A DNA stretch of 64,000 nt, taken from sequence record OQ870555.1; one strand, 5' to 3'. The stretch is from Escherichia phage PECP14. Positions 14,579 through 38,666 of this stretch are shown here, piece by piece. Each line of letters opens with the position of its first letter. Position 1 is the first letter of the stretch. The translations under genes and the position numbers were made by a program. The notes below the pieces were generated by a model that saw only the letters and a list, made by a program, of their open reading frames with translations, ran no database searches and was not told where the DNA came from.

Positions 14579-16453
14579 TTATTTAGCGCGAATGTCTTGA
14601 TGTTTCACTCGACCCATAACCTCATGTTGTTTACCTGGGTTAAACGGACGAGCACCTGGATTTCCAAGATATCCACAAACTCGACGAGTTACCTCAAGAG
14701 TCTCAGGATCATGATTGCCACAAATTGGGCATTTGAAACCATCCTCAGAAGCTATAGTTTCACCCAAGAACCCACATTCCCCACAAGAGTCTACTGGAGT
14801 ATTAATACCGAAGTAATGAACTTTACTTGCAGCATAGTTAATAACCCATTCCAGTGCATCAGGGAATCGTTTCATATCCGGTAATTCCACATAGGAAATG
14901 CACCCACCAGAAGCAATAGGAGTAAAGTTAGACTCATAATCAAACTTCACATTTGGAGCAACCTTACGTTCTACATCAAGGTGATGGGAATTAGTGTAAT
15001 ATCCTTTAGCCAGAATATCTTCATGCTCTGGGAAATACTCACGGTCTAGGCGACAGAAGCGATCACATAGAGATTCAGATGGTGTAGCATACAGACTATA
15101 CCCTAATTGAGTCTCTTCCTTCTTCTGATCAGCACGATCACGCATGTATTGTAGCACACGTTGAACGAACTTGATACAAGACTCAGACATTGTATCTACA
15201 TCTTTACCAAACATGAGCTGCAACATTTCGTGGCAACCAATATATCCTAGAGATACAGAAGCACGCTTGTAGAAATGATCAAATACATATTCATCTGGCC
15301 CCAGACGTAATCCAAAGGCTCCTGACATATAGAGGATGGGCGCAGCTTTAGCTTGAATGTATTTTAAGCGATCAACCCTCCACTCCAATGCTTTTAACGC
15401 GGTATCCACACGCAGCTCAAGCAGATCGAAGAATAGATCAATATTTCCTTCCGCTTCGATAGCGATTCGAGGAAGGTTTACGGAAACAACGCCTAAGTTG
15501 TTACGACCAGAAGTTTCACCATCTTCCGCAGCAGCCAGGAACGAACGACAGCCCATAGAGACTTTGTAGTCCCCCGTAACTTCTACAACCTTATCATAAC
15601 TGATGTAGTCAGGATACATACGTTCAGCAGTACATTTCATAGCTAACTTCTTGATATCATAGTTAACATCACCAGGTTTCATGTTTACGCCCTCACGCAA
15701 AACAAATACCAGTTTAGGGAAGATAGCTGTACGTTTATTGATACCCAAACCATCCATACGTACTTCTAGTATTGCTTTCTGTACAAGACGTGCTTCCCAA
15801 GAAGTTCCTAGACCAAAACCAAAGGTAATAAACGGACTTTGACCATTAGAGTTGAACATCGTATTGATTTCATACTCCAGGCCCTGACAGGCATCGTAAA
15901 CTTCTTTCTCAGTCATTTCCGTAGCCATTACAGATGCTTTGGCTTCATCCTTAGTCCAACGCTTTGCAAACGCATGATTCTTATCATAAGACTTACGAAC
16001 ATAAGGAGCCAATACTTCATCTAATCGGTCTACAGAAGTACCCCCATATTGATGTGAACTAACCTGAGTGATAATCTGAGCTGTGATAGCAGCCGCAGTA
16101 GTAATAGAGTTTGGTGTACTGATTTCAGCATTACCAACCTTCATACCATTCTTCAACATATCTTCCAAAGCAACCAGGCAACAGTTAGTCATACCTAATG
16201 CAGCGTAATCAGCATCATGGAAGTGAATATCACCAATCATGTGAGCATTTCGAATCTGGATTGGCATTTCTTCCAGAATCAGATATTTACTCAATTCCCC
16301 TGCAAGCATATCCCTTTGTGTAGGGAAACGTTCTGAGGGCTTATTGGCATTATTAAACAGCAGCTCTTCATCTGCTGAACCTTCGATAATTTCTTTGCAG
16401 TTTCGAATCAAGGACTGCATTCCTTTATACTTTAGTTCTTCATTGCGATTCAT
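14579..16453 (-). CDS. nrdD: anaerobic ribonucleoside-triphosphate reductase (class III)
   Basis: C-terminal Cys cluster (CGECG...CPICG) and glycyl-radical motif RVCGYLG. Confidence 0.85.
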   Translation of the reverse strand: MNRNEELKYKGMQSLIRNCKEIIEGSADEELLFNNANKPSERFPTQRDMLAGELSKYLILEEMPIQIRNAHMIGDIHFHDADYAALGMTNCCLVALEDMLKNGMKVGNAEISTPNSITTAAAITAQIITQVSSHQYGGTSVDRLDEVLAPYVRKSYDKNHAFAKRWTKDEAKASVMATEMTEKEVYDACQGLEYEINTMFNSNGQSPFITFGFGLGTSWEARLVQKAILEVRMDGLGINKRTAIFPKLVFVLREGVNMKPGDVNYDIKKLAMKCTAERMYPDYISYDKVVEVTGDYKVSMGCRSFLAAAEDGETSGRNNLGVVSVNLPRIAIEAEGNIDLFFDLLELRVDTALKALEWRVDRLKYIQAKAAPILYMSGAFGLRLGPDEYVFDHFYKRASVSLGYIGCHEMLQLMFGKDVDTMSESCIKFVQRVLQYMRDRADQKKEETQLGYSLYATPSESLCDRFCRLDREYFPEHEDILAKGYYTNSHHLDVERKVAPNVKFDYESNFTPIASGGCISYVELPDMKRFPDALEWVINYAASKVHYFGINTPVDSCGECGFLGETIASEDGFKCPICGNHDPETLEVTRRVCGYLGNPGARPFNPGKQHEVMGRVKHQDIRAK

Positions 16454-17559: not shown

Positions 17560-17802
17560 ATGGGAAACGTCGTACATCTGCACCGCAAAACTAAGATCCA
17601 CCGTACTTCACTGAGTGCTGCTAATATGATTACACGCAAAGAAGGGGAAGAAAGTCCAAAGACTTCCCTAGCGTGGAAAATTGTAGCCTCTAACCCAAAC
17701 CGGCCATTCAATTATAACGAACTTTCAACATCAGTAGATATTCTTCTGAGGGCGAATGCGAAAGCAAAAGTAATTAATCAAGCCGAAAAACTAGACTGGT
17801 AA
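17560..17802 (+). CDS. hypothetical protein
   Basis: ORF starting at ATG 17560 directly after phoH. Confidence 0.4.
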   Translation: MGNVVHLHRKTKIHRTSLSAANMITRKEGEESPKTSLAWKIVASNPNRPFNYNELSTSVDILLRANAKAKVINQAEKLDW

Positions 17803-17923
17803 TATAGAAGGCCTGGGTATGAAAATACTCGGGCCTTTTCTATCAGAAAATTTTATTTGCCAAATGACTGAGAATAAAGTAAACTATTTCCTTAATCCTG
17901 ATAATTACAAAAAGGAAAGCCAA

Positions 17924-20254
17924 ATGAGCCATCGCATCGAAAAAGTAATTAAACGTGACGGTACTGTTCAGGACTTTGCTCCTGAAAAACTCAATGATTG
18001 GGCCGCATGGGCATGTAAAGATACTGACGTAAGTTGGTCTGCCGTAGTTATGGCTGCCCTGAAAAATCTACCCAAAGGTGTTGTAGACTCCGATACACTC
18101 CAAGATGTGTTAATTAAAGCCGCTGAAGGTCTTATCAAAGACAATCCAGCATATGATACTGTAGCAAAGGAATTACGTCTTGCGCAGATGCGTAAACGCC
18201 TATATGATTCCTTCGAACCACCTTCTCTGCGTTTCTTCCACGATCATATGGTTCGTGTTGGCGCTTGGGAAGACATGAGTGCATGGATTAGCGATGATCA
18301 GTTTGACGCTCTGAATCAAGTTATTGACCATGATCGCGATCGTTTATTCACCAGTGGTGGACTGAAACAGTTCTTCGACAAGTATTCCCGTCGTAATATT
18401 GCAACTGGTGAAATTTATGAAACCCCGCAGTTTGCCTACATGGGTATGGCAATGGCGATGTTATCTCAACCTAACTGGACAATTCTAGATGCAATCGACC
18501 TCTACAATGCAATGTCGCTCCACAAAATCAACGTTCCTACGCCGCCACTGGTTGGCCTGCGCTCTAGTGACCGTGGATTTGCTAGTTGCTGCCTCGTGGA
18601 TTCCACTGACACTCTGGATTCAATCGACACAGCCGAGCACATCGTCTTCAAAATGGTCGCAGCCAGAGCGGGAATCGGGTATCATCTTGAAAGCCGATCA
18701 ATTGCTGATCCGGTGCGAAATGGGGCATTCCCGCATTCCGGAAAACTGCCATATTATCGACACATTGACCGTTCAGTAAAAGCTAACACTCAGCAAACCC
18801 GTGGCGGTTCTGCTACTGTGTCTTATCCATACTTCGATCCTGAAATCATTCAGTTGATGCAGGTTAAACAGCAACGTGCTACAGACGAGAATAAAATCGA
18901 TAAAATGGATTACTCTCTGAGCTTTAACAACCTTCTGTTAAAACGTTACCTGAAAAACGAAGATATTACGCTAATGTCCTACTTCTACGCACCAGAAGTT
19001 CATGAAGCGTTTTATGGCGAAGATGAGGCTAAGTTTGAAGAAATCTACATGGCAGCGGAGAAACGTGTGGCATCTCTTACAAAGATCGACCACGAAGGGA
19101 AAACAATTCCAGCAGCTCCTAGAATCTCTGCAAAAGAAATCCTAGATACTTGGTTACGCATCCGTATGGAAACAGGGCGTATGTACGCTCATCATATTGG
19201 TGAATCTAACCGTCATGGTAACTTCCTTGACCCGATTCGTATGACCAACCTTTGTGTAGAGATTACTCAGCCTACTCGTCCATTCCAGCACATTACGGAA
19301 CTGTACAAAACTGCGGATCAATTAGATGATATGCGTCCAGAAGATATTGGTGAAGTATCTCTGTGTAACTTAGGTGGTGTTGTACTTGGACGCATGGAAT
19401 CTCTGGCTGAGTGGGAAAAAACTTGCTACATCCTACTGAAATTCGTTGATACAATTATTGAAATTCAGGATTATCCGTTCCCAACTATGGAATATACAGC
19501 TAAGAAACGTCGTAATGTTGGTATTGGCCTGATGAACGCAGCAGGTGCAATGGCAGCAGAAGGTCTGGCTTATGAAGGTATTGAAGCCCGTAACTGGATT
19601 CACCGTGAGGCTGAAAAACTGTCTTACTTCCTGCATAAAGCCTCTGTACGCCTAGCTAAAGAACAGGGTGCATGTGAGTGGTTTGATCGTACTAAACCAT
19701 CTAAAGGAATTCTGGTAATCGACACGTACAAGAAAACTGTTGATGAACTGGTATCCGTAGGTCTAGAAATGGATTGGGAGTCTCTGCGTGCAGATATTCT
19801 GAAATATGGTATGCGTAATTCTGTTCTGACTGCTCAGATGCCAGGAGAAAGTTCTTCTGTTCTGCTAGGAGTTACTAACTCTATCGAACCGCCTCGTAAG
19901 ATTGTATCTATCAAGGGTAGTGCAGTGAATAAAGTAATTGCAATTGCTCCAGGTGCAACCGATTGGGAAACGTTAATGAGCTATAAACTGGCTTATGATG
20001 TAGATCGTATCGAGTGGATCAAATGGGTAGCAACTATGCAGAAATTCTTCAGTCAGTCTATCAGTACGAATATGTACTATGACTACACCAAGTTTGATAA
20101 TGAAATCATTCCTGGCCCAGTAGTAGTTCGTGATTTCATGACTGCTGTTAAGTATGGGTGGAAAACTTTCTACTATGCAAACTTCAATACCGCAAATGGT
20201 GGAGGTGCTGGAGAAGAAGCAGCCGGTTGTGCATCCGGCGGTTGTACTATTTAA
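17924..20254 (+). CDS. nrdA: ribonucleotide reductase large subunit (class Ia)
   Basis: ATP-cone N-terminus (VIKRDGTVQDF), catalytic-site Cys motifs, C-terminal CxxC tail; start at Met with AAGGA SD. Confidence 0.85.
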   Translation: MSHRIEKVIKRDGTVQDFAPEKLNDWAAWACKDTDVSWSAVVMAALKNLPKGVVDSDTLQDVLIKAAEGLIKDNPAYDTVAKELRLAQMRKRLYDSFEPPSLRFFHDHMVRVGAWEDMSAWISDDQFDALNQVIDHDRDRLFTSGGLKQFFDKYSRRNIATGEIYETPQFAYMGMAMAMLSQPNWTILDAIDLYNAMSLHKINVPTPPLVGLRSSDRGFASCCLVDSTDTLDSIDTAEHIVFKMVAARAGIGYHLESRSIADPVRNGAFPHSGKLPYYRHIDRSVKANTQQTRGGSATVSYPYFDPEIIQLMQVKQQRATDENKIDKMDYSLSFNNLLLKRYLKNEDITLMSYFYAPEVHEAFYGEDEAKFEEIYMAAEKRVASLTKIDHEGKTIPAAPRISAKEILDTWLRIRMETGRMYAHHIGESNRHGNFLDPIRMTNLCVEITQPTRPFQHITELYKTADQLDDMRPEDIGEVSLCNLGGVVLGRMESLAEWEKTCYILLKFVDTIIEIQDYPFPTMEYTAKKRRNVGIGLMNAAGAMAAEGLAYEGIEARNWIHREAEKLSYFLHKASVRLAKEQGACEWFDRTKPSKGILVIDTYKKTVDELVSVGLEMDWESLRADILKYGMRNSVLTAQMPGESSSVLLGVTNSIEPPRKIVSIKGSAVNKVIAIAPGATDWETLMSYKLAYDVDRIEWIKWVATMQKFFSQSISTNMYYDYTKFDNEIIPGPVVVRDFMTAVKYGWKTFYYANFNTANGGGAGEEAAGCASGGCTI

Positions 20255-20263
20255 TAAAAACAA

Positions 20264-20290
20264 GGAGATCTTCGGGTCTCCTTTTTCTTT
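20264..20290 (+). terminator. intrinsic terminator after nrdA
   Basis: GGAGATC-TTCG-GGTCTCC hairpin + TTTTTCTTT. Confidence 0.6.
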
Positions 20291-20335
20291 GAAATTTTAC
20301 TTGCTAATCGCTACCAGATTTGCTATAATATCTAT

Positions 20336-20833
20336 ATGAAATTAACACAGAGTAGATTAAAAGAGCTAATCTCCTATGACCCTGAAACTGGCGAATTTAC
20401 CTGGCTCCCAAGAAAAACTTTAGCAAAGCATTTATGGAACGCTAAAGCAGGAACCTATGATAAATTAGGGTATCTTCGTATAAAAGTTGAAGGAGTTCAA
20501 TATTTAGCTCATCGCCTAGCCTTCTTGTATATGACTGGAGAAATACCAGAAGGAAAAATTGACCATAAAGATACTAATCCGTCTAATTGCGCCTGGGATA
20601 ATCTCCGTGAAGCCACGAGTTCTCAAAATTCTATGAACTCGTGTGCAAGATCGGATAACCAGCTTGGAATGAAAAATATTCGTGTAAAAGGCACTTCATT
20701 TCAGGTTAGGATAGGCAAAGACGGCAAATCTTATACAAAAACTTTTAAAACCCTAGAAGAAGCTATAGAATGGAGAGACACCAAACTACTAGAACTTCAT
20801 GGGGACTTTGCAAACAACGGAGAAGCTAAATGA
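20336..20833 (+). CDS. HNH homing endonuclease with AP2-like DNA-binding domain
   Basis: IDHKDTNPSNCAWDNLREATSSQN (HNH), NIRVKGTSFQVRIGKDGK (AP2-like); sits between nrdA and nrdB. Confidence 0.7.
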   Translation: MKLTQSRLKELISYDPETGEFTWLPRKTLAKHLWNAKAGTYDKLGYLRIKVEGVQYLAHRLAFLYMTGEIPEGKIDHKDTNPSNCAWDNLREATSSQNSMNSCARSDNQLGMKNIRVKGTSFQVRIGKDGKSYTKTFKTLEEAIEWRDTKLLELHGDFANNGEAK

Positions 20834-21975
20834 CTACTTTACTTAACTTAGAATGGGATCATACTAACGCTGATCTTTTCCTCGGTGATTCTTTGGGTAT
20901 CGCAGATTATGTGCGTGTGGCACACCCCGAACTAGAGCGATTAGCTCTGTTGCAGCGTTCCCAGTTCTGGACTGAAACTGAAATTAGTCTTGAAGCTGAT
21001 AAAAAGCAGTGGGGTAATCTCCCACGTGATATTCAGGAAATTACTCTCCTGAACTTAGCATGGCAGACCCAAACAGATTCTTTCATTAGCCGTGCTCCTG
21101 AAGCAGCTATTATGCCGCTTGTAAGCCGTCCTGAATTGGAGGGTATGCTCAAGCAGTGGAGCTACTTCGAAGATCTGCACAGCCGTGCGTATAGTAATAT
21201 TATTCGTAACGTTCTGACTGATCCAGCAGAATTTATTGATTCTGTAACTAAAAACCAAGAAGCATTTGCACGTATCGCAGATTCTGTTGAACTGTTTGAT
21301 GAATTGTATCTGTTAGGTCAGTATTTCCTTGCAGTACGTGATCATCGTGGTGATAATACTTATCCAGAAACTGAGTTCCCTGAAGTTAAACGTGAAACTC
21401 AGGCTAAGCTGTTAGATGCTTACTTTGCAATCTACGGTCTGGAAGCAATGCAGTTCTACGCATCCTTTGCATGTACCTTTGCTCTAGCAGAGAACGATAT
21501 TCTGCAAGGTATTGCTAAGAACCTGCAATTAATCGCTAAAGATGAAGCTCTACATACTCAAATGTCTAAAGCTATCATCCAGATTATGTTCCAGCAGTTT
21601 GATAAAGATCTGGTAGACGAAGCATTAGCTAAAGCACCAGCACAACTCCTAAAAACTCTGAAAACTGAGATTGAATGGGGTCACTTTATCTTTAAAGGCC
21701 GTAGTCTGATTGGTTTGAACGCAGAACTGCTTGAAGAATACCTTTACTTTGTAGGACGTAACGCATTTATGCACATTGGTGTAGAATGGCCAAGCCACTT
21801 ACCTGTAATTACTAAGAATCCGATTCCGTGGATCATGAACTGGTTGGATACTACTTCTCTACAACCTGCTCCGCAAGAGATTCAGATTGGTGCAGCCTAC
21901 CGCGTAGGTCAAGTCACAGAAACCTCTGCTGATACTCTGAAAGATCTTGGCAACGAATTTGAGGGTATGTTCTAA
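20830..21975 (+). CDS. nrdB: ribonucleotide reductase small subunit
   Basis: di-iron ligand E/H motifs (FEDLHSRAY, DEALH). Confidence 0.8.
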   Translation: MTTLLNLEWDHTNADLFLGDSLGIADYVRVAHPELERLALLQRSQFWTETEISLEADKKQWGNLPRDIQEITLLNLAWQTQTDSFISRAPEAAIMPLVSRPELEGMLKQWSYFEDLHSRAYSNIIRNVLTDPAEFIDSVTKNQEAFARIADSVELFDELYLLGQYFLAVRDHRGDNTYPETEFPEVKRETQAKLLDAYFAIYGLEAMQFYASFACTFALAENDILQGIAKNLQLIAKDEALHTQMSKAIIQIMFQQFDKDLVDEALAKAPAQLLKTLKTEIEWGHFIFKGRSLIGLNAELLEEYLYFVGRNAFMHIGVEWPSHLPVITKNPIPWIMNWLDTTSLQPAPQEIQIGAAYRVGQVTETSADTLKDLGNEFEGMF

Positions 21976-30381: not shown

Positions 30382-30456
30382 CGGGGTGTAGTCTAAGGGA
30401 TAGGCAGGAGTCTTCTAAATTCCTTTATGCAGGTTCGAATCCTGTCACCTCGGCCA
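30382..30456 (+). tRNA. tRNA-Arg(TCT)
   Basis: hand-folded cloverleaf; AC loop CTTCTAA; T-arm GCAGG-TTCGAAT-CCTGT; CCA encoded. Confidence 0.6.
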
Positions 30457-30694
30457 ATTTTATTAACTGCTAGGAAAATAAAGTGAAAACACGATATATA
30501 GTAAAAGTAGTAGGTGAACATTCACAAGTAAATACCACCGATGTTACAGCGCTAGCATTTGAAGTAGTCTCCGGTATAGTCATATTTCATAACGGAGATA
30601 TCAAAGCTCCTGAATTTGCTGTGGATGCTAGCCTGTTTATTTCTGCAACTAAAGTAACTGTAGTAGCTAACTCTTCTAAATAATAAGGAAATAT

Positions 30695-31639
30695 ATGTTT
30701 ACTAAAAACACTAAAGAACTGACTTCCGATCAAAAAGTAATTCGTACTATTAAACGTTGGGGTGTTGGTGCTGTAGTTGGTCTTGGCGCTCTTATTCTGG
30801 CTCTCAATTCCTATACAGTTGTTCAGGACGGTACGGTTAAAACTCAGACTTTCCTGGGTAAAGTTAGTCCTAATCCTGTATTGCCGGGGTTCCATATTGT
30901 CAACCCATTCGCCTCTTTTGATACTTTTAGTACGAAAGATATTTCTATGAAACTGGATAAACTTCAGGTTCCTAGCCAGGATAAGTTTAAGTCTACAGTT
31001 GACATTACCGTTATGTTGCAGTTTGATGGTGCTAAAGCTCCTATGAACCGTGTTAACGCAGGTACTCAGGATCAAGCTCTGAACAAGTACGTTGAAGAGA
31101 AGATGCTGTCTACGATTCGTGAGTTTGGTAAGTCTGTACCAAAAGCACAAGATCTGTTCGACGCTAAGATTCAGGCTCAACTGCAAACCGCTATTCAGCA
31201 AGAAGTAGAAGAGTATGCGCGTCCTTATGGTTACACCGTTAAGCAAGTATTCCTTCAGGATATTACTCTGCCACCGGTAATCATGGAACAGGTACAGAAC
31301 ACCAAAGTTCGTGAAGAACAAGTTAACGCTGCAAAAGCTGAACTGGCTCGTGTTGAACAAGAAGCACAGCAGAAAGTTAAGCAAGCTGAGGCAGATCGTT
31401 CCGCTCGTGAAAACATGGCAGTAGCTAACGAACGTGACGCAGATGCTAAACTGTACGCAGCTAAGAAAGAAGCTGAAGCTAACGCCGCTCTGCAACGTAC
31501 CATTACTCCTGAAATGATTCGTTGGAAGCAGCTGGAAGTTGAAATGCTTCGTGCTGAAAAATACCAAGGGGGTGTACCACAGACTGTTGTCGGTACTGGC
31601 TACGATGGTCAAATGATCATGGATATGCGTAACAAGTAA
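30695..31639 (+). CDS. SPFH/band-7 (prohibitin/HflK-like) membrane protein
   Basis: N-terminal TM helix, SPFH core, long Ala/Glu/Gln coiled-coil tail; two terminators downstream. Confidence 0.65.
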   Translation: MFTKNTKELTSDQKVIRTIKRWGVGAVVGLGALILALNSYTVVQDGTVKTQTFLGKVSPNPVLPGFHIVNPFASFDTFSTKDISMKLDKLQVPSQDKFKSTVDITVMLQFDGAKAPMNRVNAGTQDQALNKYVEEKMLSTIREFGKSVPKAQDLFDAKIQAQLQTAIQQEVEEYARPYGYTVKQVFLQDITLPPVIMEQVQNTKVREEQVNAAKAELARVEQEAQQKVKQAEADRSARENMAVANERDADAKLYAAKKEAEANAALQRTITPEMIRWKQLEVEMLRAEKYQGGVPQTVVGTGYDGQMIMDMRNK

Positions 31640-31662
31640 TAGTTACACGTAATCTTCGAACC

Positions 31663-31698
31663 AAGCCCGCGTTTCCTTCGAGAGCGCGGGCTTTTCTG
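31663..31698 (+). terminator. intrinsic terminator after SPFH gene
   Basis: AGCCCGCG...CGCGGGCT stem + TTTTCTG. Confidence 0.6.
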
Positions 31699-31714
31699 TA
31701 TTTAAGGCAAAAGA

Positions 31715-31754
31715 AAAAGCCCCTTACCTTTCGGCAGGGGCTTTTGTTTTTTGG
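31715..31754 (+). terminator. second, possibly bidirectional terminator
   Basis: AAAAAGCCCCT...AGGGGCTTTTGTTTTTT at the convergence point of plus and minus genes. Confidence 0.6.
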
Positions 31755-31959
31755 TTTAGAACCATACTCTCTTGTTACAACAACCACTCATACGGGAGAC
31801 CAATCTTGACTGAAAATCTACTCTAGGGGGCAGGATAAGAGTAGGCTTAAAGGCAAACGGATTGAACACCGGTATTTGTGTAAACATTGCTGGAGAGCAA
31901 CAACGTGCTACAGGTATTGGGCAGCACGAAACAGATTTTCTGCAACACATAATTCCTCC

Positions 31960-32376
31960 TTAGGAGTTATTACCGCCATTTTGAGCTTTTGCAACTTGGC
32001 TTTGGCAGAAGCTATTAAACTTACCCATAAGTGCTACAAGCTGTTTCCCATCCTCTGTCTTTGCGAAGTCTTCGAAAAGGGCTAGTACTGCCTGTCCTTC
32101 CGCAGAAACCTGCGGTTGTTGGGTTTGTTGCTGAACTTGCTGCTGAGGCACCTGTTGCTGCATTTGTTGAGGCATTTGCGACTGCCCGCTCATTTGCTGC
32201 ATCATTTGCATAGGACTCACACTTCCAGGGTTTTGCTGGAGTTGCTGCTGCATCTGTTGCGCTTCTGCTAAACGCTGTTGCAACTGTTGTAGGTAAGGGT
32301 TATCCAGACCCGGAATGGGCTGCTGAGAGCCCATTGGTTGATTAAATCCGTTGTTCACAAAACCATATTTACTCAT
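31960..32376 (-). CDS. glutamine-rich low-complexity protein
   Basis: over 30% Gln with poly-Q(M/P) tracts; convergent with neighbouring plus-strand genes. Confidence 0.45.
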   Translation of the reverse strand: MSKYGFVNNGFNQPMGSQQPIPGLDNPYLQQLQQRLAEAQQMQQQLQQNPGSVSPMQMMQQMSGQSQMPQQMQQQVPQQQVQQQTQQPQVSAEGQAVLALFEDFAKTEDGKQLVALMGKFNSFCQSQVAKAQNGGNNS

Positions 32377-32398
32377 AATGGGCTCCTCCCCTTAAAGA

Positions 32399-33400
32399 TT
32401 AGGCTGGTACTTTAGCCTGTAGAGCTGCTAGAGTCTGAGTAATTGCACCCAGGCTTACAGCGATTTGATTGATTACCTGACCGTTTGCACCGCTACCTGC
32501 AGCGATTGCTTCACGCAGACGGCATTCATTCAGTTCGTCTTGGATACGCGCAGTAGTTACACCAGCAATCGCAGTCTGAAGTTCGCAGCAGCACTCAGCA
32601 AGCTGACGTTCGATAGCGTTCTGGTTAGCACACATCTGAGCCTGAACAGCGGCAAACTGGTTGTTAGTCTGAAGAGACTGCTGGAAAGCAATCTGGGCAG
32701 AGTCAAACTTGTCTTGTGCACGAGCGATCTGGTTAGCAGCGAAAGCTTGATCCATCTGGCGAGAAAGATCGAACTGACCCTGAATAACGTTACGAGTTTC
32801 CTGACAGATCTGGTTGGACAGGTTAGCACCAGTACCATACACAGTAGTCAGAATCTGTTGAGTGCTAGAAGCTTGAGCAGCACCTACACCATTAACAGCG
32901 CTCAGAACAGCACCAGTACCTTGATTCGCTTCGGTACGAGCAGTGTTGATTGCAGCTAGAATACTTGCAGTATCCTGGTTAGATAGGATAGCATCCACAG
33001 CAGTTCCCTCAGCGGCAACACCAGCACCACGTCCGAAACCACCGAAACCACCGAATCCGCCTGTTAATAGAGCACCAATCAGGATAGCTCCGAATAGACC
33101 CATACCTTCACCGCCGAAAGCACCATTTGCTACTGCTGGGTAACCACCCATCAGACCTGGGAAGCCGCTAGTGAATACGTTTACTGGTTCTTGCATTTTA
33201 TGTTTCCTATGTTTATGACAGCCCTCATGGTCGTCATCTTCATCATCTTCATCGTCATCATCGTGATCACGATGTTTCTTTTCGTAGGCCTTGACCTTCT
33301 CCCACTTATGTTTGTCTGATTCCTCATGACGTCTCAGTTCTGCTGCGACTTCACTGACGGTCTCAGGTTTCTTAGTTGCTTCTTCTGTCATTTTTGACAC
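32399..33400 (-). CDS. hypothetical protein: acidic/His-rich N-term, Gly-zipper segment, Ala/Gln-rich domain
   Basis: DDDDEDDEDDDHEGCHKHRKHK then GGFGGFGGFGRG; TTGACA-type promoter and AGGAGGTG SD upstream. Confidence 0.5.
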   Translation of the reverse strand: MSKMTEEATKKPETVSEVAAELRRHEESDKHKWEKVKAYEKKHRDHDDDDEDDEDDDHEGCHKHRKHKMQEPVNVFTSGFPGLMGGYPAVANGAFGGEGMGLFGAILIGALLTGGFGGFGGFGRGAGVAAEGTAVDAILSNQDTASILAAINTARTEANQGTGAVLSAVNGVGAAQASSTQQILTTVYGTGANLSNQICQETRNVIQGQFDLSRQMDQAFAANQIARAQDKFDSAQIAFQQSLQTNNQFAAVQAQMCANQNAIERQLAECCCELQTAIAGVTTARIQDELNECRLREAIAAGSGANGQVINQIAVSLGAITQTLAALQAKVPA

Positions 33401-33459
33401 CTCCTAGTATATAGAAAATGTGTGTCTCTTTGATCACTCATCTATAACATATACTTTAC

Positions 33460-33500
33460 ACTACCCCAGCGAAAATGTCAAGGGGTCTTTAAAAATTGCC
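33460..33500 (-). promoter_or_regulatory. leftward sigma70-like promoter for the convergent module
   Basis: minus strand CCTTGACATTTT...TAAAGT, then TAGGAGGTG SD before 33400 ATG; coordinates approximate. Confidence 0.4.
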
Positions 33501-33597
33501 CCCGGATTTTTAGTGGGATAACAATTTCTGGACCTCACCACTCACCTGCTACCCTTAAGTGCCCTGCGATTTTCCACTAAAAAGTTTAAAAATTCGA

Positions 33598-33626
33598 TTG
33601 CTTGAATGCTAAATTCTCTGTATAAT
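33598..33626 (+). promoter_or_regulatory. early promoter cassette
   Basis: TTGCTT-17-TATAAT + TTATAAATTTGAGAGAGGAA. Confidence 0.55.
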
Positions 33627-33656
33627 ATATTTATAAATTTGAGAGAGGAATCAAAT

Positions 33657-34712
33657 ATGATTAAGACTGGTCTAGTAATTGGTAAGTTCGCACCATTAAC
33701 GCGTGGTCATATTAACCTAATAAACACAGCAGCAACTATGTGTGAACGAGTTATTGTTGTAGTTAGTCATGATAATCGTTGGCTGGATAAGCAGAACACA
33801 CGTGATCAGGAAGTATTACAGTTAAAGAATCGACTTCGTTGGTTAGAACAAACTTACGCGGATATTGAGCACGTTTCGGTAGAGTACATTATTGAAGATG
33901 ATATTCCTGAATATCCGAATGGTTGGCCGGAATATGCTAGAATCCTTAATGAAAATTATGGACATTTGCCTGAGATCACCATTTTCTCTAGCGAACTAGA
34001 CTATGATGCAGAATATAAGAAATATCTGCCGAAGTTTGGTCATTATATTGTAGATTCTGATCGGACTCGTGTTCCAATCTCAGCTACAATGATTCGTAAT
34101 GATCTTATGAAGTATTGGGAGTTTCTTCCTAGCGTAGTTCGTAAAGATTACGTGCGTAAGGTTGTAATCATTGGGACTGAAAGCTCAGGCAAAACAACTT
34201 TAACAAAGTACCTTGCGAAATTATATAATACTTCGTGGGTAGAAGAATATGGTCGTACTTACTGCGAAGTTGATCTAGTTGGTAATGAAGAACTCCTGAC
34301 TAGCGAGGACTATAATAAAATTGCATTCAGGCACAAAGAGCTAGAGTTTGAGGCAGAACGTACTGCAAATAAGATCATGTTTGTAGACACAAATGCTTTC
34401 ATTACAGAGTTTTATCACAGACTTTACGAGCATCGTAAAAATCCGGTTGTAACAGCTATTGCTAAAGAAGAGCATTATGATTTAGTTATAGTTTTAGCAC
34501 CTACTGTTAAGTGGGTAGATGATGGTTTACGTATTAACTCCGATCGTTCAATTACTTCTGAACTGTTCGAGCAGATGAAGAAAGAATTTCCTAATCAGTT
34601 TCCAGAAGGGCGTACTGTATATATTGACTCCCCGGACTATAAGGTTCGTATGGACGAAGCAGTAAACGCAGTAGACTGGCTGATTCATCACTTTAACGTT
34701 GGAGAGTTTTAA
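33657..34712 (+). CDS. NadR-like NMN adenylyltransferase / ribosylnicotinamide kinase
   Basis: GKFAPLTRGH (HxGH nucleotidyltransferase) and GTESSGKTTL (Walker A kinase). Confidence 0.65.
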   Translation: MIKTGLVIGKFAPLTRGHINLINTAATMCERVIVVVSHDNRWLDKQNTRDQEVLQLKNRLRWLEQTYADIEHVSVEYIIEDDIPEYPNGWPEYARILNENYGHLPEITIFSSELDYDAEYKKYLPKFGHYIVDSDRTRVPISATMIRNDLMKYWEFLPSVVRKDYVRKVVIIGTESSGKTTLTKYLAKLYNTSWVEEYGRTYCEVDLVGNEELLTSEDYNKIAFRHKELEFEAERTANKIMFVDTNAFITEFYHRLYEHRKNPVVTAIAKEEHYDLVIVLAPTVKWVDDGLRINSDRSITSELFEQMKKEFPNQFPEGRTVYIDSPDYKVRMDEAVNAVDWLIHHFNVGEF

Positions 34713-34713
34713 T

Positions 34714-35391
34714 ATGACTAACTATCTTGTAAATGACTTTAAAAACTGGAAACCTTTGGAATATCTGTGGCTGTTTATAGCAGTCGCCTTTATTAGTTTA
34801 GCTAACTATAATGGTACAGCTCTAGATTGGGCTACTGCAATAACCAACGTGGTTTGTGTTATTCTGGTTGCAAAAGGACGTGTTTCCAACTATATTTGGG
34901 GCTTAGTTGGTGTTCTTACCTATGGTATTACAGCTTTAAACGCAGATCTTTATGGTAACGCTGCACTAAACCTGCTATACTACGTTCCTATGCAGTTTTA
35001 TGGAATGTACTTATGGCATAAAAATAAGCCAAGTAATCTGCCAGATGTTCCAACTAAGGTTCTGACTAAAGCCCAAGCTCTGCTGACTCTAGGGATTCTA
35101 GCAGTAGCCACGTTAGGGTATGGTAGTTTCTTAGCTACTACGGCTGATCCATTCCCAATGTTGGATGCATTTACTGCGGTAGGTAGTGTGATCGCTATGT
35201 GGCTTATGGTTAAGCAGTATGCCGAGCAGTGGCTGATCTGGATTGCTATTAACATTGGTACTGTATATATTTGGCTTGTAACTGCCCAGTCTACGGGTGC
35301 TTCTTATGCAATCCTAGCAATGTGGCTGGTGTTCTTAGGTAACTCTATTATGGGAGCCTATAAAGGCTACTTTGTAAGAGTTAACAAATAA
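34714..35391 (+). CDS. pnuC: PnuC-like nicotinamide riboside transporter
   Basis: polytopic membrane protein with PnuC-like W/Y-rich helices; directly follows NadR-like gene. Confidence 0.6.
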   Translation: MTNYLVNDFKNWKPLEYLWLFIAVAFISLANYNGTALDWATAITNVVCVILVAKGRVSNYIWGLVGVLTYGITALNADLYGNAALNLLYYVPMQFYGMYLWHKNKPSNLPDVPTKVLTKAQALLTLGILAVATLGYGSFLATTADPFPMLDAFTAVGSVIAMWLMVKQYAEQWLIWIAINIGTVYIWLVTAQSTGASYAILAMWLVFLGNSIMGAYKGYFVRVNK

Positions 35392-35396
35392 AGTAG

Positions 35397-35425
35397 TTAT
35401 AGCCCTCTAAGCGAGGGCTATTATA
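35397..35425 (+). terminator. hairpin terminator after pnuC
   Basis: ATAGCCCTC-TAAGC-GAGGGCTAT. Confidence 0.5.
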
Positions 35426-35438
35426 CAGAAATTTTCAC

Positions 35439-35467
35439 TTGCTTTATATAGAAAATTTCTGTATAAT
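35439..35467 (+). promoter_or_regulatory. early promoter cassette
   Basis: TTGCTT-17-TATAAT; near-identical leader to the 33598 copy. Confidence 0.55.
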
Positions 35468-35497
35468 ATATTTATAAATTTGAGAGAGGAATCAAAC

Positions 35498-35794
35498 ATG
35501 AAACACATTGTACTTGCATTGACTCTAGTATCTACTTCTGTATTTGCTGCTCCACAACAGGAACTTTGTCAAGTTCAAGTTTGTAATAAGCTAGAACGAT
35601 TTACTCTAGACATTTGGTCGCACATTAAAGATAATATGGGTGAACAGTGTTTTGATATTGTTCTGCCAAAAGAACAAGCTGTTCCTGGGGCTGTTCTCAG
35701 CTCAGAATCACGTTGGTGGCAGGGTTCTTCTATCAACCCAACTAAGAAGTCAGTGACACGTATCAAACAAGTATATCAGTGCAATGTTCAGTAA
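35498..35794 (+). CDS. small secreted Cys-containing protein
   Basis: signal peptide MKHIVLALTLVSTSVFAAP. Confidence 0.45.
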   Translation: MKHIVLALTLVSTSVFAAPQQELCQVQVCNKLERFTLDIWSHIKDNMGEQCFDIVLPKEQAVPGAVLSSESRWWQGSSINPTKKSVTRIKQVYQCNVQ

Positions 35795-35802
35795 AATTTC
35801 AC

Positions 35803-35831
35803 TTGCTTAATGCCGAAATTTTCTGTATAAT
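35803..35831 (+). promoter_or_regulatory. early promoter cassette preceding tRNA-Ser
   Basis: TTGCTT-17-TATAAT. Confidence 0.55.
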
Positions 35832-35845
35832 ATATTCATAAATTC

Positions 35846-35939
35846 GGAAGATTAACCCTAAAGGTAAGGGAGCTGTTTGCTAAACAGCCAGTAGCTGTGG
35901 AGACACGGTGTGCCAGTTCGAATCTGGCATCTTCCTCCA
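35846..35939 (+). tRNA. tRNA-Ser(GCT)
   Basis: acceptor GGAAGAT/ATCTTCC; AC loop TTGCTAA; long variable arm; follows promoter. Confidence 0.7.
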
Positions 35940-35944
35940 AATTT

Positions 35945-36022
35945 GGTTCTCAAGCTCATTTGGTATGAGCCGTCGCCTCATAAGCGAAAGGTAGGTAGGT
36001 TCGAATCCTCCGGGAGCCACCA
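35945..36022 (+). tRNA. tRNA-Met/Ile2(CAT)
   Basis: D-stem GCTC/GAGC; AC loop CTCATAA; T-loop TTCGAAT; CCA encoded. Confidence 0.55.
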
Positions 36023-36039
36023 ATTAACTAGGAGACTAT

Positions 36040-36225
36040 ATGTCTAGATTCTATGAAATGAAGAAAGCATTAGAAGAATGTCGGTGTAAGGATTGTCATG
36101 GTGGTGGTAGGCAGGATGATGCAGAACCTGGGGATATTTTCTGTAGAGAATGGGAATGTCCTACATGTAAAGGTACTGGTATCAACCCTGAATATGCAAT
36201 TTGTCTAGACATTGAGCGAGGCTAA
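36040..36225 (+). CDS. small Cys-rich (zinc-ribbon-like) protein
   Basis: CRCKDC...CREWECPTC. Confidence 0.4.
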   Translation: MSRFYEMKKALEECRCKDCHGGGRQDDAEPGDIFCREWECPTCKGTGINPEYAICLDIERG

Positions 36226-36565
36226 GATGGATATTTTTACTACTCCGGCAATAAACCTTTTAGGTGTTGGCTTGTTCCAAGCTACGGTGTATCGTACTGA
36301 TGATTCTACTGATGTGGTAACGTTCATCGTACCTGAGTTCTTCCTAGAAAAGTTCTTTGAAGAGTTTGAGCAGTTCCGTGAAGAACACAATGCTCATTCC
36401 GATATGGAAGATCTAGCAGCTATGTTCCCTGTGGTTTACGGCTATATCTTTGAAGGTAATGGCCTAGATCTTAATAAATCTGAACTCGTTGAACTTAATT
36501 GGGGCATCAATTTTGAAGTTGGCTCTCCATTCCCTCGATATTTCCAGGGTTTAGAGATTCGCTAA
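36212..36565 (+). CDS. hypothetical protein
   Basis: ORF. Confidence 0.45.
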   Translation: MSEAKMDIFTTPAINLLGVGLFQATVYRTDDSTDVVTFIVPEFFLEKFFEEFEQFREEHNAHSDMEDLAAMFPVVYGYIFEGNGLDLNKSELVELNWGINFEVGSPFPRYFQGLEIR

Positions 36566-36573
36566 GATTACAT

Positions 36574-36650
36574 GGGGGTGTAATCGAATTGGCATAGGTA
36601 CTGGACTTAAAATTCAGGTTTTGTGGGTTCGAATCCCACCACCCCTACCA
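36574..36650 (+). tRNA. tRNA, anticodon TAA (isotype uncertain)
   Basis: acceptor GGGGGTG/CACCCCT; T-arm GTGGG-TTCGAAT-CCCAC; AC loop CTTAAAA with short variable loop. Confidence 0.5.
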
Positions 36651-36665
36651 AATTAAGGAAATAAA

Positions 36666-36788
36666 ATGAAAGCTATTAAGAAAGCACTACGTAAATTTAT
36701 GTACTGTCGTTTTCATAGCATCAAGACTTCAACTAATGGTACGACTTATGATCGCTATGATCCTAAGTTTGGCTTACATTCTAAATAA
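36666..36788 (+). CDS. small hypothetical protein
   Basis: 40-codon ORF with AAGGAAA SD after a tRNA. Confidence 0.3.
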   Translation: MKAIKKALRKFMYCRFHSIKTSTNGTTYDRYDPKFGLHSK

Positions 36789-36801
36789 CTGGAGATAATA
36801 A

Positions 36802-37008
36802 ATGGCTAATCCTGAAATTACTGCACAGCGCTTTATGCTGAAAGGTATTATTGCTGAAGCAGGCATGACAGAAGAAGTTGCAGATTTTCAAAAGCAGTTC
36901 CTAAATATTCTCACTCAAGCCAAAGAGCTAGGAGAGAAAGAACATGGCGCGGCTATTATGGCAATCACATTGGTTGGGCTTGATCTGGCAGAAGAATCAG
37001 GAGTTTAA
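36802..37008 (+). CDS. hypothetical protein
   Basis: ORF. Confidence 0.4.
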   Translation: MANPEITAQRFMLKGIIAEAGMTEEVADFQKQFLNILTQAKELGEKEHGAAIMAITLVGLDLAEESGV

Positions 37009-37038
37009 CTCCTCCAAGCAGAAATTTTAAAAATGTAC

Positions 37039-37068
37039 TTGCTTTTTACTTAAGATTTCTGCTATAAT
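37039..37068 (+). promoter_or_regulatory. early promoter cassette
   Basis: TTGCTT-18-TATAAT. Confidence 0.5.
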
Positions 37069-37098
37069 AGTTATATAAATTGATGAAGGAGTTAACGA

Positions 37099-37374
37099 AT
37101 GTCAAAACGTGTTACTGCAACTGGTGTTGAAAGTGCTGTTTGTAAATCCTGGGGTGGCTGGGAAGGTGAGATTGAATGGCTTTATTTCTACGATGTAGAA
37201 CTTCTGCCGGAAGTCAAAGCTAAATGTGTGGAAGCTGGTATGGCTCCTGATGCAAAGGCTGATATCGAAATCACCATGACTAAGCTAGAAGGTCGTGTAA
37301 TTACGCTCAATGATGATTATGAAGAAGTGTTCGAGCTTCCATTCAAACTGAGTGTCACCCCTAGCTTCGAGTAA
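37099..37374 (+). CDS. hypothetical protein
   Basis: promoter cassette + AAGGAG SD. Confidence 0.45.
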   Translation: MSKRVTATGVESAVCKSWGGWEGEIEWLYFYDVELLPEVKAKCVEAGMAPDAKADIEITMTKLEGRVITLNDDYEEVFELPFKLSVTPSFE

Positions 37375-37410
37375 CTGATATAGCACTGAGCAAGTTCTTT
37401 AAAATTTGAC

Positions 37411-37439
37411 TTGCTCAGTCCTTCAAAACTTGATATAAT
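37411..37439 (+). promoter_or_regulatory. early promoter preceding tRNA cluster
   Basis: TTGACTTGCTC / TATAAT. Confidence 0.5.
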
Positions 37440-37503
37440 AGTTATCTAATTTGGAAAACATATTTAAAAGTGTTTAAACTAGTATTTGAATATTTCTAAA
37501 TAT

Positions 37504-37594
37504 GTTGGATTAGTATCGTAGAGGTAGCGAAGCAGACTGTAAATCTGCCGACTCGGAAGGGTCTCGGGTGGTTCGACTCCATCATCCAACACCA
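37504..37594 (+). tRNA. tRNA-Tyr(GTA)
   Basis: AC arm GCAGA-CTGTAAA-TCTGC; long variable arm. Confidence 0.6.
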
Positions 37595-37601
37595 AATTTA
37601 A

Positions 37602-37678
37602 GTCCTGTTAGACAAACTGGTAAAGTCACTACCCTTTCAAGGTAGGATTTGCGGGTTCGATCCCCGCACAGGACGCCA
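37602..37678 (+). tRNA. tRNA-Glu(TTC)
   Basis: acceptor GTCCTGT/ACAGGAC; AC loop CTTTCAA; T-arm GCGGG-TTCGATC-CCCGC. Confidence 0.7.
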
Positions 37679-37687
37679 AATTCTGCA

Positions 37688-37763
37688 TTCCTAGAGTGTT
37701 ACTGGACAGCATGTCGGTCTCCAAAACCGTACGGTCTAGGTTCGAGTCCTAGTAGGTTTGCCA
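37688..37763 (+). tRNA. tRNA-like, anticodon CCA (Trp?), non-canonical acceptor
   Basis: AC arm TCGGT-CTCCAAA-ACCGT and T-arm CTAGG-TTCGAGT-CCTAG are good but acceptor stem does not pair. Confidence 0.35.
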
Positions 37764-37769
37764 ATATTT

Positions 37770-37844
37770 GCACCTTTAGCTGAGATGGATTAGCGCTTGC
37801 CTGAAGAGCTTGAGAGGTTGGATCGTTACCAACGGGGTGCACCA
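37770..37844 (+). tRNA. tRNA-Phe(GAA)
   Basis: acceptor GCACCTT/GGGGTGC; AC loop CTGAAGA; T-arm GTTGG-ATCGTTA-CCAAC (atypical loop). Confidence 0.5.
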
Positions 37845-37846
37845 AT

Positions 37847-38134: not shown

Positions 38135-38155
38135 CCGCTTAAAGTTCTGTATAAT
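38127..38155 (+). promoter_or_regulatory. early promoter cassette
   Basis: TTGCTT-17-TATAAT. Confidence 0.5.
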
Positions 38156-38184
38156 TATTACATAAATTGAACTGGAGAAGCAAC

Positions 38185-38597: not shown

Positions 38598-38659
38598 ATG
38601 GCTTAGGCGGAGGCCTGCAAAACCTCCTTATGTGAGTTCGAATCTCATGCGGTCGTCCA
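38584..38659 (+). tRNA. tRNA-Cys(GCA)
   Basis: acceptor CGACCGT/GCGGTCG; AC loop CTGCAAA; T-loop TTCGAAT. Confidence 0.6.
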
Positions 38660-38666
38660 AATTTTA

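What the first reader, a model, noticed from the sequence alone, without database searches (positions are those of the whole stretch)
20336..20833. HNH homing endonuclease inserted between nrdA and nrdB
A 165-aa ORF with an HNH motif (HKDTNPSNCAWDNL...N) and an AP2-like DNA-binding domain sits exactly in the nrdA-nrdB junction, overlapping the nrdB start by 4 nt. This is a classic free-standing homing endonuclease position in phage nucleotide-metabolism genes. Cys/His-rich small ORFs in the tRNA region (e.g. 40441-40758) may be further HNH-type nickases.
Basis: partly seen in the sequence, partly recalled or inferred. Interest (0 to 1): 0.5.

Follow-up and report, generated by a model that had tools for sequence, protein, structure and literature searches.

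The report
Known HNH homing endonuclease between nrdA/nrdB
The ORF is a real, intact HNH endonuclease gene sitting as a mobile cassette between the two ribonucleotide-reductase genes of a T5-like phage, but the same gene at the same site is already annotated and was described in 2012, so it is a correct but ordinary finding.

Summary

- **What it is:** The window is a T5-like phage (Epseptimavirus), 99.3% identical to vB_SabS_Sds2. ORF 20336-20833 encodes a 165-aa protein with an I-HmuI-like HNH_3 nuclease core and a divergent AP2-fold C-terminal domain. It lies between nrdA and nrdB and overlaps the nrdB start in ATGA.
- **Evidence for mobility:**
  - Among about 440 related GenBank records, roughly 57% have an empty junction.
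  - About 6% carry this gene, and about 25% carry other HNH genes (T5 hegH type, gmork type) at exactly the same site.
  - The gene travels with a private, almost purely synonymous recoding of the first ~160-190 nt of nrdB.
  - A 1.7-kb tract (19343-21023) is ~98% identical to Tequintavirus AKFV33 and Spc35, against a background of ~88%.
  - dN/dS is 0.04-0.2.
- **Prior description:** Near-identical genes are annotated "HNH homing endonuclease", and Niu et al. 2012 described AKFV33 ORF96 (98.8% identical) in this slot and compared it with T4 mobE.
- **Side claim:** The suggestion that small tRNA-region ORFs are HNH nickases is not supported.
- **Not tested:** Nuclease activity, target site and homing.

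The parts
17819..20254 (+). nrdA (class Ia ribonucleotide reductase large subunit), upstream neighbour of the cassette
   Evidence: Pfam ATP-cone, Ribonuc_red_lgN and Ribonuc_red_lgC, E=5.8e-120; annotated as such in Sds2
19343..21023 (.). Recombination (co-conversion-like) tract around the HNH gene. It is ~98% identical to Tequintavirus AKFV33 and Spc35 against a ~88% background. Over about 19100-21000 it is the only block that differs from the otherwise near-identical empty-junction phage PRF-SP13.
   Evidence: Mismatch maps
20262..20291 (+). Intrinsic terminator after nrdA (9-bp stem, 4-nt loop, T-run). It is conserved in empty and occupied alleles.
20301..20329 (+). T5-type promoter TTGCTA-17-TATAAT with TG extension. 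It is the nrdB promoter in empty alleles. The left boundary of the insert lies 2 nt after its -10 hexamer.
   Evidence: the same element is annotated as a promoter in AKFV33 and T5
20336..20833 (+). 165-aa HNH endonuclease gene: N-terminal beta-rich region aa 1-55, HNH_3 core aa 56-100 (20501-20635), AP2-fold domain about aa 111-160 (20666-20815). The ATG lies 7 nt after the -10 hexamer and has no Shine-Dalgarno sequence.
20819..20824 (+). GGAGAA Shine-Dalgarno sequence for nrdB, embedded in the last codons of the HNH gene
   Evidence: sequence; the Sugarland annotation places a ribosome-binding site at the equivalent position
20830..21020 (+). First ~190 nt of nrdB, a cassette-linked and almost purely synonymous haplotype. 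There are 21 fixed differences from empty alleles at 20844-20991. This is the candidate target and immunity region.
20830..21975 (+). nrdB (ribonucleotide reductase small subunit), downstream neighbour. Its start overlaps the HNH stop in ATGA.
   Evidence: Pfam Ribonuc_red_sm, E=2.3e-35

Best explanation
ORF 20336-20833 is a free-standing homing endonuclease gene of the I-HmuI-like HNH_3 + AP2 type. It occupies the nrdA-nrdB intergenic slot of a T5-like phage. It replaces the 29-nt nrdB leader found in empty alleles, uses the resident nrdB promoter, and hands translation on to nrdB through an internal Shine-Dalgarno sequence and an ATGA overlap. Inferred mechanism: in a mixed infection the protein recognises the first ~100-165 nt of an insert-free nrdB, using its N-terminal region and AP2-fold domain. 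As a single-active-site monomer it most likely nicks one strand. Recombinational repair from the HNH-carrying genome then copies the gene, plus the nrdB 5' segment between the gene and the break, into the recipient. The carrier's own nrdB 5' segment is synonymously recoded and therefore not recognised. What is shown: the gene, its domains, intact catalytic residues, presence/absence polymorphism, the cassette structure, and transfer between genera. What is inferred: nuclease activity, nicking rather than double-strand cleavage, the location of the target, immunity through recoding, and leaderless expression.
For: Domains: HNH_3 at E=1.2e-16. I-HmuI (1u3e) is the best solved relative by sequence and by fold (probability 1.00). 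D76, H77, R91, N98 and N101 are invariant and N89 nearly invariant across 66 homologues. AP2 is found in 35 of 66 homologues, and the model has pLDDT 95.3. Polymorphism: in an even sample of 60 of 443 related records, 33 junctions are empty, 20 hold a different insert of similar size and 4 hold this gene. By tblastn, 28 records carry this type, 75 the T5 hegH type and 34 the gmork type. About 250 records match the empty junction contiguously. The empty junction is invariant and all inserts share the same left and right boundaries. Transfer: tract 19343-21023 is ~98% identical to AKFV33 and Spc35 against an ~88% background. Relative to the near-identical empty phage PRF-SP13, only about 19100-21000 differs. 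In nine carriers the two flanks vary independently, from 0.1% to 10.7%, while HNH + nrdB nt 1-190 stay at 0-1.3%. Target-side signature: there are 21 fixed carrier-versus-empty differences in nrdB nt 15-162 and none in the 1.1 kb upstream. Divergence there is 15-20% between classes against 1.7% within carriers, and the differentiation vanishes after nt 200. Each HNH class has its own recoded nrdB 5' haplotype, with one or no amino-acid change. Selection: dN/dS is 0.04-0.20. Slot fidelity: relatives at 79%, 71% and 67-69% identity in other Demerecviridae lineages sit in the same slot. Precedent: T4 MobE, also between nrdA and nrdB, nicks T2 nrdB at nt 122-126, and its recombination point lies within the first 189 nt (PMC2790892).
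Against: There are no biochemical or genetic data for this protein or for any close relative; the papers found only predict it. The nrdB 5' haplotype could simply be donor DNA held in linkage because its divergence blocks crossovers, so it does not prove that the target lies there. The carrier haplotype is as different from empty alleles as a distant lineage would be, which makes dedicated immunity mutations impossible to separate from hitch-hiking. Pfam does not detect AP2 in the protein itself. The start codon has no Shine-Dalgarno sequence, so expression may be very low. Most carriers could have inherited the cassette through ordinary recombination between co-infecting phages rather than endonuclease-driven homing.
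Confidence: 0.8

Rival explanations
1. It is an inactive, decaying remnant of a homing endonuclease gene that no longer cuts DNA and persists only through linkage to the essential nrd genes.
For: Homing endonuclease genes commonly degenerate after fixation (cycle summarised in PMC3326045). T4 I-TevIII next to mobE is such a defunct gene. The ORF lacks a Shine-Dalgarno sequence.
Against: All 28 near-identical copies found are full length. dN/dS is 0.04-0.20. The catalytic Asp-His and Asn residues are invariant. The model is confidently folded. The cassette has recently crossed between genera.
Confidence: 0.08
2. It is a domesticated HNH/AP2 protein with a role for the phage itself. Possibilities are a regulator of nrdB expression, or the nickase that produces the single-strand interruptions typical of T5-type DNA. 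On this view it is not a selfish mobile gene.
For: It sits on the nrdB promoter and is translationally coupled to nrdB. AP2-fold domains are sequence-specific DNA binders. Purifying selection is strong. T5-type HNH enzymes are described as nickases in annotations.
Against: More than half of close relatives lack any gene at this site, and a quarter carry only ~31-44% identical proteins there. A conserved phage function is therefore unlikely. The cassette-plus-flank transfer pattern is what mobility predicts.
Confidence: 0.07
3. It is an active site-specific endonuclease whose main effect is exclusion of competing phages' nrd markers in co-infection. It makes a double-strand break rather than a nick, and its target lies outside nrdB, for example in the nrdA 3' end or the intergenic region.
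For: In this genome the exchanged tract extends ~1 kb into nrdA. The last two NrdA codons vary with the junction allele.
Against: There are no fixed carrier-versus-empty differences anywhere in 1.1 kb upstream. STWB21, falkor and SmurfNell carry the gene with unrelated nrdA 3' ends. The intergenic terminator and promoter are identical in empty and occupied alleles. The closest solved relative, I-HmuI, and the positional analogue MobE are both nickases.
Confidence: 0.05

Closest known systems
AKFV33 ORF96 (AET24708) and the equivalent genes of Sds2, Spc35, fuchur, falkor, SE11 and others, annotated 'HNH homing endonuclease'
   Same: It is the same gene: 97-100% amino-acid identity, same slot, same ATGA overlap with nrdB. 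Niu et al. 2012 described it as a putative homing endonuclease between nrdA and nrdB and compared it with mobE (PMC3326045).
   Different: Nothing material differs. None of these copies has been tested experimentally.
Phage T5 hegH (T5.095, putative H-N-H endonuclease P-TflVIII; called 'nicking homing endonuclease F-TflVIII' in the DT571/2 record)
   Same: Identical slot, same insert boundaries, same HNH_3 core and same C-terminal 'KNIR..G..FQVR...TLEEAIE.RD' domain. It also carries its own recoded nrdB 5' haplotype.
   Different: Identity is only 42%. It has a 20-nt leader with an AAGGAG Shine-Dalgarno sequence and a TTG start, instead of an ATG directly after the -10 hexamer. It does not overlap the nrdB start. 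It is a different allele class, found in 75 records against 28.
Phage T4 MobE
   Same: It is a free-standing HNH gene between nrdA and nrdB. It nicks the 5' region of an insert-free nrdB (T2 nt 122-126) and has a recombination point within the first 189 nt (PMC2790892). That position aligns with the centre of the densest recoding in the T5-like cassettes.
   Different: There is no detectable sequence similarity (BLASTP E=40). MobE belongs to Pfam HNH PF01844, with the motif at the N-terminus and no AP2 domain. MobE is promoterless and co-transcribed with nrdA, whereas this gene sits directly on a promoter.
I-HmuI (Bacillus phage SPO1, PDB 1u3e)
   Same: It is the best solved relative by sequence (E=9.4e-4) and by fold (Foldseek E=4.6e-4, probability 1.00). 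The DHKD...NLR...N catalytic motif aligns residue for residue. It is a monomeric nicking homing endonuclease (PMC3017599).
   Different: I-HmuI is encoded inside a group I intron in a DNA polymerase gene. Its C-terminal DNA-binding part is not an AP2 domain. Identity is about 23%.

Membership tests
HNH_3 (PF13392) / I-HmuI-like His-Me finger endonucleases | Profile match above the curated threshold | tested here: met
   60.4 bits against a cut-off of 24.8, E=1.2e-16, aa 56-100; PHROG_99 at E=1.9e-61
HNH_3 (PF13392) / I-HmuI-like His-Me finger endonucleases | Catalytic Asp-His pair and the downstream Asn residues are conserved | tested here: met
   D76, H77, N98 and N101 are invariant and N89 nearly invariant in 66 homologues. 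The motif aligns with DHKD...NLR...N of I-HmuI. The residue roles come from the I-HmuI literature, not from a test here.
HNH_3 (PF13392) / I-HmuI-like His-Me finger endonucleases | Beta-beta-alpha-metal fold | tested here: met
   AlphaFold model with pLDDT 95.3, strands 74-77 and 90-93 plus helix 95-100; top Foldseek PDB hit is I-HmuI 1u3e, probability 1.00
HNH_3 (PF13392) / I-HmuI-like His-Me finger endonucleases | Metal-dependent DNA nicking or cleavage | not testable with these tools
   No experimental data were found for this protein
AP2 DNA-binding domain (PF00847) | Profile match in the protein itself | tested here: not met
   No AP2 hit even at E<=10
AP2 DNA-binding domain (PF00847) | Homology of the C-terminal region to AP2-bearing relatives, and a three-strand + helix fold | tested here: met
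   35 of 66 full-length homologues hit AP2, best E=1.1e-12, and they align over the whole C-terminus with G111, A143 and G156 conserved. The model has strands 115-118, 121-128 and 131-137 and helix 140-158. Foldseek hits to WRINKLED1 and the TEM1 AP2 domain have weak E-values of 0.025-0.065, with probability 1.00 for 7et4_G.
Free-standing homing endonuclease gene (functional class) | Lies between conserved genes, not in an intron or intein, with insert-free alleles in close relatives and precise boundaries | tested here: met
Free-standing homing endonuclease gene (functional class) | Horizontal spread with co-converted flanking DNA, incongruent with the phage background | tested here: met
Free-standing homing endonuclease gene (functional class) | Cuts the insert-free allele while its own allele is resistant | not testable with these tools
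   The only indirect signal is the carrier-specific synonymous recoding of nrdB nt 15-162
Free-standing homing endonuclease gene (functional class) | Endonuclease-dependent over-inheritance in mixed infections | not testable with these tools
   Requires phage crosses
T4 MobE family | Sequence homology to MobE | tested here: not met
   BLASTP E=40. MobE hits PF01844, not PF13392. This is a positional and probably mechanistic analogue, not a member.

The most novel reading that the evidence does not exclude
The nrdA-nrdB slot of T5-like phages may be a multi-allelic contest. At least four HNH_3/AP2 lineages, 31-69% identical to each other, each travel with a private synonymous recoding of nrdB codons ~5-54 that serves as target-site immunity. 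They would all aim at the same nrdB codons (~36-47, ERLALLQRSQFW) that the unrelated T4 MobE nicks, which would be convergent targeting. The lineage in this window would additionally be expressed from a leaderless mRNA that starts at its own ATG. That arrangement is conserved in relatives down to 71% identity.
Probability: 0.4. Interest if true: 0.4.

Novelty: already known. Interest (0 to 1): 0.2.

Why it matters
As a gene call it adds nothing. The same gene is annotated in dozens of T5-like genomes and was discussed in 2012. The comparative picture does have modest value. It gives a clean natural example of homing-endonuclease cassettes competing for one site. It yields a specific, cheap-to-test prediction of the target, within nrdB nt ~100-165 of insert-free alleles, and of the immunity mechanism, synonymous recoding. 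It also suggests that unrelated HNH enzymes of T4-like and T5-like phages converged on the same stretch of nrdB. For phage genomics it is a reminder that the 5' end of nrdB in these phages reports cassette history rather than phage phylogeny.

Tried and rejected
- **AP2 by profile:** A Pfam scan of the protein at E<=10 gave no AP2 hit. The claim rests on homologues and the predicted fold.
- **Homology to T4 MobE:** None was found, so the protein is not filed as a MobE-family member.
- **More HNH genes in the window:**
  - A profile built from 66 homologues found only this ORF among 597 six-frame ORFs.
  - Eight tRNA-region ORFs gave only unknown-function PHROGs and no HNH Pfam hit.
  - ORF 40441-40758 has invariant CxxC...CxxC but no invariant His, so it is a zinc-ribbon-like protein, not an HNH.
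- **Target site in nrdA or the intergenic region:** No fixed carrier-specific differences were found there.
- **Experimental literature:** A search for work on P-TflVIII/F-TflVIII found genome papers only.
- **IMG/VR scan:** A scan with the promoter sequence gave only 11 loci, which duplicate GenBank genomes. It was useful for allele calls but not for new diversity.

Full report
**Observation**

The window contains an ATG-initiated ORF of 165 codons at 20336-20833 on the + strand.
- Upstream lies nrdA (17819-20254), with ATP-cone, Ribonuc_red_lgN and Ribonuc_red_lgC domains.
- Downstream lies nrdB (20830-21975), with a Ribonuc_red_sm domain.
- The protein matches Pfam HNH_3 at aa 56-100 (E=1.2e-16, 60.4 bits against a cut-off of 24.8) and PHROG_99 'HNH endonuclease' (E=1.9e-61).

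**Where the window comes from**

The region is 99.3% identical to Phage vB_SabS_Sds2 and Salmonella phage PYC03 (Demerecviridae, Epseptimavirus). 443 GenBank phage records match it. The 28 tRNA genes and the neighbourhood nrdD / phoH / nrdA / nrdB / frd / thy / rnh are the standard T5-like layout.

**Protein anatomy**

- **Closest solved relative.** By sequence this is I-HmuI, the HNH homing nickase of Bacillus phage SPO1 (1u3e, E=9.4e-4). Its DHKD...NLR...N motif aligns with D76-H77-K78-D79...N89-L90-R91...N98.
- **Conservation.** In an alignment of 66 full-length homologues, D76, H77, R91, N98 and N101 are invariant and N89 nearly so.
- **Predicted structure.** An AlphaFold2 model built on that alignment is confident (pLDDT 95.3, pTM 0.84). 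It shows an N-terminal beta-rich part, the beta-beta-alpha core, and a C-terminal unit of three strands (115-118, 121-128, 131-137) packed on a long helix (140-158).
- **Fold search.** Foldseek against the PDB returns I-HmuI first (E=4.6e-4, probability 1.00). Plant AP2 domains follow: WRINKLED1 7wq5 and the TEM1 AP2 domain 7et4_G.
- **AP2 status.** Pfam does not detect AP2 in this protein itself, even at E<=10. It does detect AP2 in 35 of the 66 homologues, with a best E of 1.1e-12.

'AP2-like' is therefore right as a statement about fold and family. This copy is a divergent one.

**Presence/absence and alternative occupants**

It fails.
- **Empty alleles.** PRF-SP13 has a 106-bp intergenic region between nrdA and nrdB and no ORF. 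Nine further genomes have the same empty junction, TATAAT|ATTCCTGAAATAGTGAGAAAGAGGAAAATCAATG.
- **Even sample.** In 60 of the 443 records, 33 have a span showing no insert. 20 have a different insert of similar size, 4 have this gene, and one has the phiLLS variant.
- **Counts by tblastn.** 28 records carry this type at >=95% identity. 75 carry the T5 hegH / P-TflVIII type. 34 carry the gmork_81 type. About 250 match the empty junction contiguously.
- **Phage T5 itself** carries hegH in this slot.
- **Relatedness of occupants.** All are HNH_3 proteins, but they are only 31-44% identical to one another.
- **Boundaries.** All inserts begin 2 nt after the -10 hexamer of the conserved nrdB promoter and end at the nrdB ribosome-binding site.
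- **Slot fidelity.** More distant relatives of the window's protein sit in the same slot in other Demerecviridae lineages. These are Klebsiella phage Sugarland (79%), a 113.5-kb metagenomic contig (71%) and phiLLS (67-69%).

**Evidence for movement**

- **Against Tequintavirus phages.** Compared with AKFV33 and Spc35, the background identity is about 85-90%. From 19343 to 21023 there are only ~30 mismatches in 1.68 kb, with sharp edges on both sides.
- **Against the nearest empty phage.** Compared with PRF-SP13, the window shows 0-1 mismatch per 100 nt from 17800 to 19100 and again from 21000 onward. It shows 5-17 per 100 nt between about 19100 and 21000, around the insert.

This genome therefore looks like a PRF-SP13-like background that received a ~1.7-1.9 kb tract containing the HNH gene from an AKFV33/Spc35-like donor.

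Across nine carriers the flanks vary independently:

| Segment | Divergence from the window |
|---|---|
| nrdA 3' end | 0.1-10.7% |
| HNH body | 0-8.1% |
| Last 40 nt of HNH + first 190 nt of nrdB | 0-1.3% |
| nrdB nt 191-700 | 0.2-9.8% |

**The nrdB 5' signature**

- Carriers and empty alleles show no fixed difference in the 1.1 kb upstream of the insert.
- They show 21 fixed differences in nrdB nt 15-162 (window 20844-20991).
- In nrdB nt 1-200, divergence is 1.7% within carriers, 3.8-6.7% within empties, and 15-20% between the two groups.
- After nt 200 the groups are indistinguishable.
- The differences are nearly all synonymous, with one amino-acid change (N8E).
- Every HNH class (window type, T5 hegH type, gmork type, phiLLS type) has its own recoded version. 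The densest recoding is in codons 36-47, ERLALLQRSQFW.

This is what is expected if the endonuclease's target lies in the 5' part of nrdB. Everything between the gene and the break would then be co-converted every time, and the carrier allele would be unrecognisable to its own enzyme. It is not proof. Donor DNA locked in linkage by its own divergence would look similar.

The precedent is close. T4 MobE is a free-standing HNH between nrdA and nrdB. It nicks the non-coding strand of T2 nrdB at nt 122-126, and recombination points fall within the first 189 nt (PMC2790892). In a protein alignment, that site corresponds to the middle of the recoded stretch in the T5-like genes. MobE is not homologous to the present protein: BLASTP gives E=40, and it belongs to Pfam HNH PF01844 rather than HNH_3. 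The resemblance is therefore one of position and probable mechanism, not of family.

**Is the gene alive?**

dN/dS against four other carriers is 0.04-0.20; STWB21 shows 31 synonymous against 6 non-synonymous differences. All copies found are full length. A decaying remnant is unlikely.

**Expression (inferred)**

- nrdA is followed by a strong intrinsic terminator (20262-20291).
- A T5-type promoter follows, TTGCTA-17-TATAAT with a TG extension (20301-20329). The same element is annotated as a promoter in AKFV33 and T5.
- The HNH ATG at 20336 lies exactly 7 nt after the -10 hexamer, where sigma-70 transcription normally starts, and no Shine-Dalgarno sequence precedes it.
- The same spacing is kept in Sugarland and in the metagenomic relative.
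- The T5 hegH, gmork and phiLLS types instead have a ~20-nt leader with AAGGAG.

The most economical reading is a leaderless, weakly translated HNH message. nrdB would be served by the GGAGAA at 20819-20824 inside the HNH gene. This needs transcript mapping.

**Side claim**

- ORF 40441-40758 is Cys-rich. It matches only an unknown-function PHROG and no Pfam nuclease family.
- Its homologues keep C39, C42, C49, C70 and C73 invariant but no histidine. An HNH active site is excluded; it looks like a small zinc-ribbon protein.
- Seven other tRNA-region ORFs give no HNH signal.
- A profile of the HNH_3/AP2 family finds only ORF 20336-20833 in all six frames of the window.

**What is known already**

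- Near-identical genes are annotated 'HNH homing endonuclease' in Sds2, SB13, STWB21 and others. In Spc35 the gene is annotated 'putative H-N-H-endonuclease P-TflVIII'.
- Niu et al. 2012 described AKFV33 ORF96, which is 98.8% identical to the window's protein. They placed it between nrdA and nrdB, called it a counterpart of T5 P-TflVIII, pointed to T4 mobE, and asked for further study (PMC3326045).
- No experimental work on this protein or on T5 hegH turned up in the searchable library.
- The general pattern of different nuclease genes occupying the same site at boundaries of exchange is described for other phages (PMC10448857).

**Verdict**

The parts that may be new are the class-specific recoded nrdB 5' haplotypes, the predicted target coinciding with the MobE site, and the apparent leaderless start. 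All three are inferences that a short set of experiments could settle.

Noticed in passing
window 20324-20338; L021 3975-4000; L029 3985-4005: In the window's HNH lineage the ATG sits exactly 7 nt after the -10 TATAAT and has no Shine-Dalgarno sequence. This spacing is conserved in relatives at 79% and 71% identity. The other HNH classes in the same slot have a ~20-nt leader with AAGGAG. This suggests a leaderless mRNA.
   Followed up: partly
window 20790-21020: Among carriers, the last 40 nt of the HNH gene plus nrdB nt 1-190 are more conserved (0-1.3% divergence) than the HNH body itself (8.1% in STWB21, 3.7% in SP1a). This hints at nucleotide-level constraint or repeated sweeps of this segment.
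   Followed up: partly
window 20246-20251 (last two nrdA codons): The C-terminal dipeptide of NrdA varies between junction alleles. It is TI in the window, SE11, DT571/2 and phiLLS. It is NL in empty alleles, gmork and SB10. It is QL in T5 and TL in Sugarland. It lies next to the redox-active C-terminal cysteine pair.
   Followed up: no
window 40441-40758: This 105-aa ORF in the tRNA cluster has invariant CxxC...C...CxxC (C39, C42, C49, C70, C73) and a conserved C-terminal PCNAPYFIGF motif. It matches PHROG_6053 of unknown function. It is probably a zinc-ribbon protein and not an HNH.
   Followed up: partly
window 45394-45762: This 122-aa ORF just after the tRNA cluster has a Pfam Gly_radical domain (E=4e-18, aa 62-103). 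It resembles a small stand-alone glycyl-radical 'spare part' protein, in a genome that also encodes nrdD (14579-16453, minus strand).
   Followed up: no
window 30382-45022: There are 28 tRNA genes on the + strand, interspersed with small ORFs that all fall in unknown-function PHROGs (6894, 9447, 4551, 5876, 6053, 7572, 4760).
   Followed up: partly
GenBank records MG065692, MG065642, OR847452 (hits): Records named 'Campylobacter phage C13/A148' and 'Listeria phage LM 4-11-1' match this T5-like nrd region at 86-100% identity. The names probably reflect contamination or mislabelling rather than true hosts.
   Followed up: no
LR597659 (T5_ev212) versus NC_005859 (T5): The record named T5_ev212 has an empty nrdA-nrdB junction, whereas reference T5 carries hegH there. 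Either the gene was lost or replaced, or the record is a recombinant.
   Followed up: no
window 17819-17923: The nrdA start is annotated inconsistently among relatives: products of 811 aa, about 797 aa and 776 aa. The window's longest ORF gives 811 aa.
   Followed up: no
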